The notes beneath the pieces are model-generated. The model searched no databases. It saw only the letters and a program-made list of their open reading frames with translations, and was not told the DNA's origin. The position numbers were made by a program, and so were the translations under genes. DNA of 64,000 nucleotides, taken from sequence record OZ556245.1. One strand, given 5' to 3'. Origin of the DNA: a phage. Numbering within the stretch: the first letter of the stretch is position 1; every line of letters starts with the position of its first letter. Shown one piece after another: positions 2,588 to 6,822 of this stretch.

Positions 2588-3048
2588 TAGTAAAGGTCCT
2601 CAGAGTAAAGTTCTTTTTCACTACCACCGCGTTCAATACGTACTTGTCCGGCGTAAGTTGCAATAATCATTGCTTCTTCACGTGTCCAGTAATTGCTATA
2701 CTGATCAATAAACCCTTGGTCATCATCACAAACTTGCTGAGTAACTAATTGGGGTTTAACTACATCTAAAACTTCTGCCATATCTTTAGAATAATGACGA
2801 GCACCTGGAATAACAAGAGTTCGTCCATCTTTTAATTTAAAACGGTTGGCGGCACAAACAATTCGTCGTTGATACTTTTGGTTTTCATCCCAGTATGCGG
2901 TCTGCCAACAGATTTCAGGAACTTCTTTCAGAATATCTTCTTCTGTGCATTTATAACCATGTGCTTTAAATTTTTCAACAAGACTTTCTGGAGTTTCACG
3001 AGATAAAGGAACATTCAGCATTTTTAAACGATTAATAAATGGGTTCAT
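2587..3048 (-). CDS. Hypothetical early protein (arn.x-like)
   Basis: 153-aa ORF with overlapping stop/start against both neighbours. Confidence 0.45.
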
Positions 3049-4502: not shown

Positions 4503-4652
4503 TTACTGCATGACTGTGATAACTGTCATGATAACACGTTGAATTCCGAACGCAAGAAGACCTCCTGCTACGGCAGGAACAACACCTAAACCCGCCAGTA
4601 AAATGCCACCAGATACTAATGCAGCGCTTGTAATACCTATGAATGGACTCAT
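4503..4652 (-). CDS. Small membrane protein
   Basis: 49 codons, MSPFIGITSAALVSGGILLAGLGVVPAVAGG..., ATG overlaps gene 52 stop (ATGA). Confidence 0.4.
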   Translation of the reverse strand: MSPFIGITSAALVSGGILLAGLGVVPAVAGGLLAFGIQRVIMTVITVMQ

Positions 4653-5977
4653 TTGATTTCCTCTAAATCTTTGGTGTATTCTGTAACTACATCAGTAGTT
4701 TTCCAATATTCGTTTTCTTCTTTTTTAGCTTTAGCTTCTTCAGCAAGTTTCTTTGCTTCGTCGGAAGTCATATGAAAAATATTCATTCCAACTAGTTTAT
4801 CAACATAAGAAGAATACATATCAATTTTAGAAAGTTCTTCGGTCAGTTCTTTGCGAGTTTTACCTTGTACAACAATTTCACCTGAAATTACTTTCTTAAT
4901 GAAATGTGCCTTGGCAAAGGCTAAACGAAATGCTGATTCAGTTTCTTTGATTTTGTTATCAATTCGTTTTTGGACATAAGTTTTACGAACTTCAACGAAG
5001 TCTTTGATTAAATCAACTACGTTATCGTAAACTTGTAGTTTTCCTTTCTCATTAATAACGGTAATATTCTGGGAACGACGCTCAATCAACCCGAAGTCTT
5101 TCATAATTTTTGCATGGCGTTCTTCTTCGTTATCGCTTAAGGAATATTCTTTACGGAATTTAACTTTGAAGCCAAAACCATGCTCACCGCAAGCATCATC
5201 CCACGTAATGAAACCTTTATCTTCAAGCGGGTCTAAGATTTTACTCACATAAGTTTCACGATCATACTTATACGGAATCTCAGTGATATGCATTTGAGTT
5301 CGCGAAGTAAACTTGTACGTTCCACGAATTTCATATTGACCGTCAATTTCAACGACTTCACCACGAAATTCTGGGAATTCTACCTTAGGTTTAGTTACTT
5401 TCTTTCCTTGAAGAGCTTGCAATACAGCTTTCTTGACAGAAGAAACACTATGAGGAAGAATGTAAGTTGCATAACCAGTTGCAATACCGGAAACACCATT
5501 AAGAAGAACAGTAGGAATAATAGGCAAATAGAAAGCAGGCGGAATGTGTTCTTTATCTTGATGTACCGGAGCATATTCAGTATCTTTATATACGTTATAG
5601 AAATTTTTACTTACACGAGCAAAAATATAACGACTTGCCGCTGCTTTTTGAACGGTACGAGAACCAAAGTTTCCTTGACCATCTAACAGAGGAAAGTTAT
5701 TATTCCAAGTATTAGCCATCAAAGCACCTGCGTCTTGTGCAGAGTTTTCACCATGATGATATCCAAGGTCTGCTACACCACCTGCAATAGAAGCGAGTTT
5801 GTGAAACTTATCTTTATTTCCTCGTGCCAAATCAAGAGCTCGAGCAATAACAAATCGTTGAACTGGCTTAAATCCATCAATCATATTTGGGATAGCACGA
5901 TTTTCAACCGTGTACATAGCATAAGCCAATGCTTCGTTATCAATGATACTTTTTAAATCGCGATTATTCAGTTGCAT
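4649..5977 (-). CDS. 52: DNA topoisomerase II medium subunit gp52 (GyrA-like)
   Basis: 442 aa, T4 gp52 length; ATG verified; synteny. Confidence 0.9.
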   Translation of the reverse strand: MQLNNRDLKSIIDNEALAYAMYTVENRAIPNMIDGFKPVQRFVIARALDLARGNKDKFHKLASIAGGVADLGYHHGENSAQDAGALMANTWNNNFPLLDGQGNFGSRTVQKAAASRYIFARVSKNFYNVYKDTEYAPVHQDKEHIPPAFYLPIIPTVLLNGVSGIATGYATYILPHSVSSVKKAVLQALQGKKVTKPKVEFPEFRGEVVEIDGQYEIRGTYKFTSRTQMHITEIPYKYDRETYVSKILDPLEDKGFITWDDACGEHGFGFKVKFRKEYSLSDNEEERHAKIMKDFGLIERRSQNITVINEKGKLQVYDNVVDLIKDFVEVRKTYVQKRIDNKIKETESAFRLAFAKAHFIKKVISGEIVVQGKTRKELTEELSKIDMYSSYVDKLVGMNIFHMTSDEAKKLAEEAKAKKEENEYWKTTDVVTEYTKDLEEIK

Positions 5978-5981
5978 AAAT

Positions 5982-6122
5982 TTACCATACTAGTGAATGT
6001 AGTGCCATAATAACATCAGAAATGAAAAGCACGACTTGAATTAATCCGAACATTACTCCATAATATAGTGCTACCAATAAAGTAGCAAGGGCTAATGAAT
6101 AGCCCAAGATTTTCTTAATCAT
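5982..6122 (-). CDS. Small hydrophobic membrane peptide
   Basis: 46 codons [33 protein letters not shown]...; below ORF-track cutoff, translated by hand. Confidence 0.35.
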   Translation of the reverse strand: MIKKILGYSLALATLLVALYYGVMFGLIQVVLFISDVIMALHSLVW

Positions 6123-6273
6123 TAGTAGATAACAACACAAATGTTAAATATGCACACATACCCTGAGATAAAGCTTGTGAAAACACGCTGTTAGCATCGG
6201 TGCAGATAGTTAAAACACATGCTACTATCCAACAAATCATTGAAATAATTCCAATAATTTTCGTAATATTCAT
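6115..6273 (-). CDS. Small hydrophobic membrane peptide (ac-like position)
   Basis: 52 codons [26 protein letters not shown]...; preceded by RBS GAGGAG; same region as T4 ac (51 aa). Confidence 0.4.
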
Positions 6274-6370
6274 AATATTCTCCTCGATTGTTTTTAAAAC
6301 CTAAAACACCGAAATTTTTAAGATTGTTACGATAGAACTGCATCACATGTTCGTTATGGAAATTACTCAT
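6191..6370 (-). CDS. stp: Stp-like peptide, C-terminally extended
   Basis: Hand translation [18 protein letters not shown]... matches the first 18 residues of T4 Stp as I recall it, but continues to 59 codons; start overlaps ndd stop (TAATG). Confidence 0.5.
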
Positions 6371-6822
6371 TAGTATACCTGCAAAACAAATTTAAAGTTA
6401 TCAGCCAACATACGGTTCATTTCTTCAAGTGTTTGATACTCAGAATGATGATTACGAGTAAACGCTAAAGCTAACTGACCTTTTCCAAATCCTGTCGTCA
6501 AAGGTTTCATCTTAGAAGCAGGCAAATAAAATACTGCGTATGGAACATTATTATTTGCAATAGTGCGCGCGAGCTGAGACCGACGTTGACGAATATGACT
6601 TAGAACTGCACTGAATCCTTGTTTAGAACGCTGATTACCTACATAAAATCGTGCAGATACGCATGAACCATATGAACCATCGAATTCGCTTATTAAAAAG
6701 TAAAATCCAGGTTTAGATAAAATATCTTTGTGCGGAGTTCCCAAAAACCATTCACCGCCCTTGATTGTACCAATAACAGTAGCACCTGCATTATTCAGAT
6801 CAGTAACAGTCATGTATTTCAT
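6370..6822 (-). CDS. ndd: Nucleoid disruption protein Ndd
   Basis: 150 aa, position upstream of stp, T4 Ndd-like size. Confidence 0.7.

What the first reader, a model, noticed from the sequence alone, without database searches (positions are those of the whole stretch)
6191..6370. stp-like ORF lacks the expected stop and runs 59 codons into the next gene
Hand translation from the ATG overlapping the ndd stop gives [18 protein letters not shown], matching the first 18 residues of the 26-aa T4 Stp peptide as I recall it. It then diverges ([25 protein letters not shown]...) with no stop until codon 60, reading through the RBS and first 26 codons of the downstream small membrane gene in another frame. 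Stp is the peptide that triggers the PrrC anticodon nuclease, so a C-terminal change could alter that interaction.
Basis: partly seen in the sequence, partly recalled or inferred. Interest (0 to 1): 0.4.

Follow-up and report, generated by a model that had tools for sequence, protein, structure and literature searches.

The report
Stop-loss, extended Stp peptide allele
In this T4-like phage a single T-to-C change removes the stop codon of the tiny stp gene, whose peptide blocks a host restriction enzyme and trips a host tRNA-cutting defence, so the peptide grows from 28 to 59 residues by reading out of frame into the next gene; it is a real but rare natural variant whose effect is untested.

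Summary
On the minus strand, 6370..6191 encodes a 59-codon ORF. Its first 18 residues are identical to T4 Stp (26 aa), and it matches Pfam PF08133 (E=8e-14).

Residues 19-28 ([10 protein letters not shown]) are not a new divergence. They are the known T6/Ox2-type Stp tail (NFGILGFKNS, 28 aa).

The only real change is at codon 29. Every other T4-like allele examined reads TGA, embedded in the ac Shine-Dalgarno sequence (TGAGGAG). This haplotype reads CGA. Translation therefore continues 31 codons, in the -1 frame over the ac SD, start codon and first 27 codons, to TAA at 6193..6191.

It is not a sequencing error. The identical 270-nt stp-ac block occurs in 6 of about 590 GenBank Tequatrovirus genomes, one metagenome contig and three other assemblies, on two ndd backgrounds 6.5% apart.

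Published mutagenesis places Stp activity in the N-proximal 18 residues, with the C-terminus largely dispensable. The long form therefore most likely remains an active type IC restriction inhibitor and PrrC trigger carrying a passenger tail. This is inferred, not shown.

The feature is a minor new variant of a known peptide and of modest interest. Five annotated phage genomes leave stp unannotated.

The parts
6370..6822 (-). ndd (nucleoid disruption protein, 150 aa); its TAA stop overlaps the stp ATG (TAATG)
   Evidence: ORF list; Pfam PF06591 E=5.9e-88
6191..6370 (-). extended stp ORF, 59 codons plus TAA stop
   Evidence: PF08133 E=8.4e-14; PHROG 6763 E=3e-17
6317..6370 (-). stp codons 1-18, the N-proximal effector region; 18/18 residues identical to T4 Stp
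   Evidence: functional mapping from PMC3014915
6287..6316 (-). stp codons 19-28 ([10 protein letters not shown]), a T6/Ox2-type tail differing at 2 residues from T6 NFGILGFKNS
6284..6286 (-). codon 29 = CGA (Arg) where all other T4-like alleles have TGA; this is the stop-loss site
   Evidence: alignments; 25 of 25 non-haplotype T4-like loci have T here and 7 of 7 haplotype loci (window included) have C
6280..6285 (-). ac Shine-Dalgarno GAGGAG, now inside the stp reading frame
   Evidence: sequence; conserved TGAGGA[AG] context
6194..6283 (-). stp codons 30-59, an extension with no family match. Codons 33-59 read in the -1 frame of ac. With Arg29 the added tail is acidic (pI 4.5) and 32% aromatic.
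6191..6193 (-). new stp stop codon TAA, formed across ac codons Ala27-Asn28 (GCT AAC)
6115..6273 (-). ac (acridine sensitivity membrane protein, 52 aa), intact; its first 83 nt are overlapped by stp
   Evidence: PHROG 2501 E=1.7e-22, residues 2-51
5982..6122 (-). 52.1 (46 aa from the ATG at 6122; the ORF list's TTG start at 6140 is an upstream extension)
   Evidence: PF24129 DUF7396 E=5e-23, residues 7-52 of the TTG ORF; T4 annotation
4649..5977 (-). gene 52, topoisomerase II medium subunit (context)

Best explanation
This is a naturally circulating stop-loss allele of the phage anti-restriction and anticodon-nuclease-activator gene stp.

Shown: in a T6/Ox2-type stp (normally 28 aa), the stop codon TGA, which in all other T4-like phages examined sits inside the ac Shine-Dalgarno sequence (TGAGGAG), is CGA here. 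Nothing in the sequence ends translation before the TAA at 6193..6191.

It follows from the sequence that ribosomes starting at the stp ATG (overlapping the ndd stop) will insert Arg at codon 29. They will then continue across the ac SD and AUG in the -1 frame of ac, giving a 59-residue peptide. That peptide has an unchanged basic N-terminal effector segment (residues 1-18 identical to T4) plus a 31-residue acidic, Tyr/Asn-rich tail. The tail is simply the out-of-frame reading of the 5' end of a membrane-protein gene.

Inferred: the residues needed both for inhibiting type IC restriction (EcoprrI, EcoR124I) and for unmasking PrrC lie in the N-proximal 18 residues, and the C-terminus is dispensable and polymorphic. 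The long peptide therefore most likely still binds the type IC R-M complex and works like ordinary Stp. On this reading the tail is a neutral or mildly costly passenger. A likely side effect is that termination-reinitiation coupling into ac is replaced by ribosome traffic across the ac start site.
For: Sequence and translation.

Family and position: T4 Stp identity over residues 1-18; PF08133 and PHROG 6763 hits; canonical ndd-stp-ac-52.1-52 order.

The change: a single T-to-C difference at the stop against fFiEco06, Paracelsus, T6, JK23 and T4. T is present at this position in 25 of 25 other T4-like loci.

Not an error: the exact 53-mer with CGA is in six GenBank phages, including isolates from Egypt (inferred from the ZCEC name; the record gives no country), Pakistan and Lebanon. 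It is also in metagenome contig L012 and three further assemblies.

Persistence: the haplotype lies on two ndd backgrounds 6.5% apart, while the roughly 630-720 nt compared from stp to the 5' end of gene 52 are identical or differ at 1 base. It has therefore persisted and recombined.

Functional mapping: PMC3014915.

Other support: ac is intact. The carrier EPIMAM01 keeps pseT and RNA ligase 1, the counter-measures to PrrC. C-terminal fusions of Stp arose independently elsewhere, including a 74-aa fusion on 20 Kagunavirus-like contigs.
Against: No experiment or expression data bear on the long form. Adding 31 residues is not the same as deleting 8. The tail moves the peptide's pI from 9.7 to 6.2, and it could mask the N-terminal helix or cause aggregation or proteolysis. 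The AF2 model is unreliable (pLDDT 58). All carriers are identical over 270 nt, so there is no within-haplotype variation to show purifying selection on either part. At about 1% of Tequatrovirus records the allele is rare, which is also what a mildly deleterious allele would look like.
Confidence: 0.6

Rival explanations
1. Functional knock-out or escape allele. The 31-residue tail destabilises or sterically blocks Stp, so the phage no longer trips PrrC and loses type IC anti-restriction. The loss would matter little for a T-even phage, whose glucosyl-hydroxymethylcytosine DNA resists type I enzymes (general knowledge of T-even DNA modification).
For: stp null mutants of T4 are viable and are selected on prr+ hosts in pnk-/rli- backgrounds (PMC3014915). 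The tail reverses the peptide's net charge. The allele is rare.
Against: The N-terminal 54 nt are untouched, and no other disruptive stp allele (N-terminal frameshift, early stop or deletion) appeared among about 40 loci examined. This argues that Stp is under purifying selection rather than freely lost. The known suppressor mutations map to residues 4-14, not the C-terminus. Carriers keep pseT and rnl1.
Confidence: 0.25
2. The selected effect is on ac, not on Stp. Changing TGA to CGA abolishes termination just upstream of the ac start, so elongating ribosomes cross the ac SD and AUG and change ac translation. The longer peptide is a by-product.
For: The stop normally lies 13 to 11 nt upstream of the ac ATG, inside its SD, in all T4-like alleles; even alleles that end earlier with TAA keep the TGAGGA. 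The C makes a G-C instead of a G-U pair in a weak hairpin that includes part of the SD (-9.8 against -7.8 kcal/mol).
Against: The predicted folds are no better than shuffled sequence (z = 0.06 and 0.81). The SD core and spacing are unchanged. ac is non-essential and is broken outright in T2, so subtle regulation seems an unlikely target. There is no direct evidence.
Confidence: 0.1
3. Sequencing or assembly error at the stop codon.
For: None beyond prior plausibility for a single-base difference.
Against: The identical allele occurs in six independently deposited phage genomes, one metagenome contig and three other assemblies, from different laboratories and countries, on two different ndd backgrounds. 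The change is a substitution, not a homopolymer indel.
Confidence: 0.01

Closest known systems
T6/Ox2-type Stp (28 aa; AXN58297.1 from T6, CAA86960.1 'Baker variant' from Ox2; also fFiEco06, Paracelsus, JK23)
   Same: Same locus and same start overlapping the ndd stop. Residues 1-18 are identical to T6, fFiEco06 and JK23; the Ox2 variant has D15 in place of N15. The tail is of the same type (NFG[IV]LG[FS]KN[SN]), and the ac SD has the same spacing.
   Different: Codon 29 is CGA instead of TGA. There are also two tail substitutions (I22V, S28N) and several synonymous changes. The product is 59 aa rather than 28 aa and overlaps ac by 83 nt.
T4 Stp (26 aa, NP_049878.1), activator of PrrC and inhibitor of type IC restriction (Penner et al. 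1995, via PMC3014915 and PMC12707154)
   Same: 18/18 N-terminal residues, where the functionally mapped residues lie. Same gene order and the same TGA-in-SD architecture in the ancestor.
   Different: The T4 tail is TKGVFGRQ and is encoded by a GC-rich hairpin. T4 has no extension.
Other C-terminally extended Stp forms: the 74-aa Stp fused to the downstream ORF in Kagunavirus-like siphoviruses (P0002/P0003), and the 81-aa Stp(1-18)-Ac in-frame fusion (P0004)
   Same: The N-terminal 18 residues are intact and extra C-terminal sequence comes from loss of the normal stop.
   Different: Those arise by 1-nt indels that fuse Stp in frame to a real downstream protein. Here a substitution reads the downstream gene out of frame (overprinting). 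P0004 rests on a single contig.
Overprinting / stop-loss C-terminal extension in compact viral genomes (general phenomenon)
   Same: New coding sequence is created by reading an existing gene in another frame after the stop is lost.
   Different: There is no evidence here that the overprinted part is functional or under selection. The frame staying open for 31 codons has p of about 0.09 under synonymous recoding of ac.

Membership tests
Stp / Pfam PF08133 (anticodon nuclease activator family) | Profile match above the curated threshold | tested here: met
   PF08133 scores 51.3 bits against a cut-off of 25, E=8.4e-14, residues 1-24 of 26 profile positions. PHROG 6763 E=3.1e-17.
Stp / Pfam PF08133 (anticodon nuclease activator family) | Near-invariant N-proximal 18 residues [18 protein letters not shown], the region that carries both activities | tested here: met
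   18/18 identical to T4. The segment is identical in 40 of 42 stp-bearing sequences (window included), the exceptions being L025 (L17F) here and the Ox2 protein P0008 (N15D). Functional mapping from PMC3014915.
Stp / Pfam PF08133 (anticodon nuclease activator family) | Genomic position between ndd and ac in T-even phages, with the start overlapping the ndd stop | tested here: met
   Window order is ndd 6822..6370, stp 6370..6191, ac 6273..6115, 52.1, 52. T4, T6, fFiEco06 and Paracelsus show the same order.
Stp / Pfam PF08133 (anticodon nuclease activator family) | Very short peptide (25-28 aa) terminated at or before the TGA in the SD of the downstream gene | tested here: not met
   The product is 59 aa because the TGA is replaced by CGA. 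This is a difference of length only; homology is not in doubt.
Stp / Pfam PF08133 (anticodon nuclease activator family) | Inhibits type IC restriction (EcoprrI, EcoR124I) and activates latent PrrC anticodon nuclease | not testable with these tools
   Needs in vivo or in vitro assays. No solved structure or complex exists to model against, and the AF2 model is of low confidence.

The most novel reading that the evidence does not exclude
The acidic, aromatic-rich 31-residue tail is not a passenger but changes what Stp does. One possibility is that it keeps type IC anti-restriction while no longer unmasking PrrC, which would be an escape from abortive infection that point mutations in the N-terminus cannot achieve, because both activities share the same residues. 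Another is that it extends inhibition to other R-M or defence complexes. Either would make this haplotype a natural separation-of-function allele for a peptide whose mechanism is still described as unknown in 2025 (PMC12707154).
Probability: 0.08. Interest if true: 0.6.

Novelty: new variant of a known kind. Interest (0 to 1): 0.27.

Why it matters
Stp is the classic example of a phage anti-restriction factor that a host has turned into an alarm signal for abortive infection (PrrC). How a 26-residue peptide does this is still unknown.

A circulating allele that more than doubles the peptide's length while leaving the mapped effector segment intact is a ready-made natural test of how much C-terminal cargo Stp tolerates. 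It also tests whether anti-restriction and PrrC activation can be uncoupled.

There is a practical point as well. Annotation pipelines handle the locus badly. Five annotated carrier phage genomes omit stp. Three bacterial or metagenome assemblies call the 59-aa ORF, and NCBI names it 'hypothetical protein' in Shigella flexneri assemblies. Two of those three assemblies drop ac altogether and one truncates it.

If, as seems most likely, the tail is a neutral passenger, the finding is an ordinary polymorphism.

Tried and rejected
(1) Sequencing error: rejected, because 11 independent sequences carry the allele.

(2) Frameshift origin: rejected. The haplotype has the same length and frame as the T6 type, and the only change at the stop is T to C.

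(3) A TGA 'twin' of the haplotype with otherwise identical flanks: none in the phage collection. The immediate ancestor was therefore not sampled. The nearest short alleles, JK23 and T6, are 91-93% identical over 133 nt.

(4) CGA versions of the T4-type and T6-type junctions: none. Controls with TGA found 434 and 7 records.

(5) RNA structure around the ac start: folds are not better than shuffles.

(6) Structure prediction of the 59-aa peptide: pLDDT 58, pTM 0.29, two helices (4-23 and 31-56). This is too weak to use, so no fold search was run.

(7) PDB sequence search: nothing.

(8) Family searches of the 31-residue tail alone: nothing.

(9) Exhaustive representative search: only one 28-aa relative, so there are no deeper homologues.

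(10) Whether the overlapping frame being open is itself special: 8.9% of synonymous recodings of ac keep it open as far, so it is not significant. The frame is also open in most other haplotypes.

(11) Programmed frameshifting at the TTTAAAAA run: considered from the sequence and rejected. The heptamer is not in a slippery register, and a -1 shift would not enter the ac frame.

(12) Primary papers (Penner 1995; Amitsur 1989) are not in the held library. The functional mapping is cited through the review PMC3014915.

Full report
**What is in the sequence**

The finding's coordinates hold a minus-strand ORF. Its ATG is at 6370..6368, and the A of that ATG is the last base of the ndd stop (TAATG). 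There are 59 sense codons and a TAA stop at 6193..6191.

The window is a Tequatrovirus (T4-like phage). A 901-nt stretch around the locus matches 565 phage records, the best being Tequatrovirus LF73P3 at 99.7%. The gene order on the minus strand is the canonical one:
- ndd: 6822..6370
- stp: 6370..6191
- ac: 6273..6115
- 52.1: 6122..5982
- gene 52: 5977..4649

**Is it stp?**

T4's annotated stp (NC_000866 165505-165585) translates to [26 protein letters not shown], 26 aa. The first 18 residues are identical to the window ORF. The ORF scores 51.3 bits (cut-off 25, E=8.4e-14) against Pfam PF08133, the anticodon nuclease activator family, over residues 1-24. It scores E=3e-17 against PHROG 6763. 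Homology is not in doubt.

**What exactly changed**

Residues 19-28 ([10 protein letters not shown]) are in fact the ordinary second tail type of T-even Stp:
- T6 and JK23: NFGILGFKNS, 28 aa
- Ox2 'Baker variant': same tail NFGILGFKNS, 28 aa, with D15 in place of N15 in the N-terminal segment
- fFiEco06 and Paracelsus: NFGILGSKNS, 28 aa
- T2: NFGILGFKK, 27 aa

In every T4-like allele I could read, the stop or the codon after it is a TGA lying inside the ac Shine-Dalgarno sequence, TGAGGA[AG], 13-11 nt upstream of the ac ATG. This held for 25 of 25 loci outside this haplotype. In the window the same position reads CGAGGAG (CGA at 6286..6284). There is no indel, and the frame and spacing are those of T6.

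A single T-to-C substitution has therefore removed the stop. Translation continues for 31 more codons. From codon 33 it is in the -1 frame of ac, and it ends at a TAA formed across ac codons 27/28 (GCT AAC). The overlap with ac is 83 nt. ac itself is intact at 52 aa (PHROG 2501, E=1.7e-22).

**Real allele or error?**

A 53-mer centred on the C, built so that a mismatch at that base leaves no 28-nt seed, finds six GenBank phage genomes at 100%:
- ZCEC15 (wastewater)
- PBM-1 (poultry bedding, Pakistan)
- EPIMAM01 (sewage, Lebanon)
- UGKSEcP1
- UGKSEcP2
- LF73P3

A degenerate pattern scan found one more copy on a metagenome contig (L012, OARM01001950.1).

The exact 59-aa protein is in NCBI as 'hypothetical protein [Shigella flexneri]' (EFW4640025.1, EPC0611320.1). 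It is encoded on three further assemblies, with the 270-nt stp-ac block identical to the window.

The carriers are not clones. Window, LF73P3 and L042 share one ndd allele. ZCEC15, EPIMAM01, UGKSEcP1 and PBM-1 have an ndd that differs at 29-30 of 452 positions. In contrast, the roughly 630-720 nt compared from stp to the 5' end of gene 52 are identical, or differ at one base in ZCEC15. The allele has been circulating and recombining. It is not an artefact.

**Frequency**

- The T4-type junction with TGA is in at least 434 records.
- The exact T6-type junction is in 7 records.
- CGA versions of those two junctions are in none.
- A TGA twin of the window haplotype is in none.

The long allele is thus about 1% of roughly 590 Tequatrovirus records. 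On my rough count from the hit list, it is about one in seven of the T6-like tail class.

**What the product looks like**

Residues 1-28 are basic (pI 9.7), like T4 and T6 Stp. The added 31 residues are acidic (pI 4.5) and 32% aromatic, bringing the whole peptide to pI 6.2.

The tail matches no protein family and no solved structure. The exhaustive representative search finds only a 28-aa Stp. An AlphaFold2 model gives two helices (4-23 and 31-56) at pLDDT 58 and pTM 0.29, which is too weak to interpret.

The tail's composition is what one expects from reading an AT-rich membrane-protein gene one base out of frame. That frame is open in most other haplotypes too. Under synonymous recoding of ac it stays open this far in 8.9% of trials. 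Nothing suggests a pre-existing hidden gene.

**How it most likely works**

The mapped biology of Stp is summarised in PMC3014915:
- The peptide is necessary and sufficient to activate the latent PrrC anticodon nuclease.
- It does so by targeting the type IC enzyme EcoprrI. It also inhibits EcoR124I.
- Suppressor mutations cluster at residues 4-14.
- Deleting the last eight codons only moderately lowers both activities.
- The 18 N-terminal residues are almost invariant among T4-like phages, while the rest is polymorphic.

A 2025 review still calls the inhibitory mechanism unknown (PMC12707154).

The effector segment is untouched here and the C-terminus is the tolerant end. My best reading (confidence about 0.6) is therefore that Stp-59 still acts as Stp and that the tail is a neutral or mildly costly passenger.

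Three observations are consistent with this:
- Stp with extra C-terminal sequence has arisen independently. One case is a 74-aa in-frame fusion to the downstream ORF on 20 Kagunavirus-like contigs. Another is an 81-aa Stp(1-18)-Ac fusion on one T4-like contig.
- No N-terminally disrupted stp was seen among about 40 loci.
- A carrier genome keeps full-length pseT and RNA ligase 1, the enzymes that repair PrrC damage.

**Rivals**

- The tail may inactivate Stp and so avoid PrrC triggering (about 0.25). This is plausible because stp is dispensable and the tail reverses the net charge. However, the known escape mutations are N-terminal, and nothing else suggests that stp decays freely.
- The selected effect may be on ac translation (about 0.1). 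The stop normally sits in the ac SD, and its loss replaces termination-reinitiation with read-through traffic. The predicted RNA folds are no better than shuffles, and ac is expendable, being broken in T2.
- Sequencing error is excluded.

**Verdict**

The feature is a rare natural length variant of a known peptide, made by a one-base stop loss and overprinting of ac. It is of modest interest as a natural C-terminal-tolerance experiment and as an annotation trap. It is not a new kind of system.

Noticed in passing
L011 3031-3108; L013, L014, L027-L030; L040 and L041 1501-1725: Stp is not confined to T4-like phages. Siphovirus contigs of about 43-45 kb encode [25 protein letters not shown] (24 of its 25 residues identical to T4 Stp) with quite different codons. 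The flanking DNA of one of them (L040) matches Kagunavirus genomes at about 90%; in L040/L041 the gene lies about 350 nt downstream of the endolysin. In the L040/L041 variant (20 contigs) it is fused in frame to the next ORF, giving a 74-aa product. An E. coli genome copy (P0001) also exists.
   Followed up: partly
L039 1501-1746: A T4-like contig has a 1-nt deletion in the AAAA run after stp codon 18. This fuses Stp(1-18) in frame to the whole Ac protein (81 aa; Pfam Nuclease_act plus Phage_T4_Ac). It is a single Logan contig, so an assembly error is not excluded.
   Followed up: partly
L006 about 3009-3024 (T4 stp tail, minus strand): The T4-type Stp tail (KGVFGRQ) is encoded by a perfect GC-rich hairpin with a UUCG loop (GGCGUC-UUCG-GACGCC) immediately 5' of the ac SD. 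The T6-type tail and the window haplotype lack it. The two tail types may reflect RNA-level rather than peptide-level differences.
   Followed up: no
window 6371-6822 versus L003, L036, L037, L038: The long-stp haplotype sits next to two ndd alleles 6.5% apart, while everything from stp to the 5' end of gene 52 is identical or differs at one base. This implies a recombination breakpoint at or near the ndd/stp junction.
   Followed up: partly
L034 403-656 (phage T2): T2 has an extra A in the A-run of the stp tail (27 aa, ending at TAG). Its ac is interrupted by an in-frame TAA, and the record annotates only a 42-nt 'ac'. T6 carries an extra G near the 3' end of ac.
   Followed up: no
L035 about 490-950; also sb1, PST, ECML-134 and vB_SsoM_113: Many Tequatroviruses have an insertion of about 156 nt between stp and ac that appears to encode another small hydrophobic protein (MKFVHGIAFFCWFFLCVG...). 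The stp-ac junction is therefore a variable spot.
   Followed up: no
L032 235-408 (Shigella phage JK23): JK23 has an extra 57-aa ORF inserted between ndd and stp, and its stp is not annotated.
   Followed up: no
L042 3001-3394; L043 3001-3256; L044 247-640; GenBank records: Gene callers treat the overlapping pair inconsistently. Five annotated phage records call ac and omit stp. Two assemblies (L042, L044) call the 59-aa stp and drop ac. One (L043) calls stp and truncates ac to 41 aa from an internal start.
   Followed up: yes
window 5982-6140: The mechanical ORF list gives 52.1 a TTG start at 6140 (52 aa). The Pfam DUF7396 match (residues 7-52) and the T4 annotation put the real start at the ATG at 6122, which overlaps the end of ac (AATGATTAA).
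   Followed up: yes
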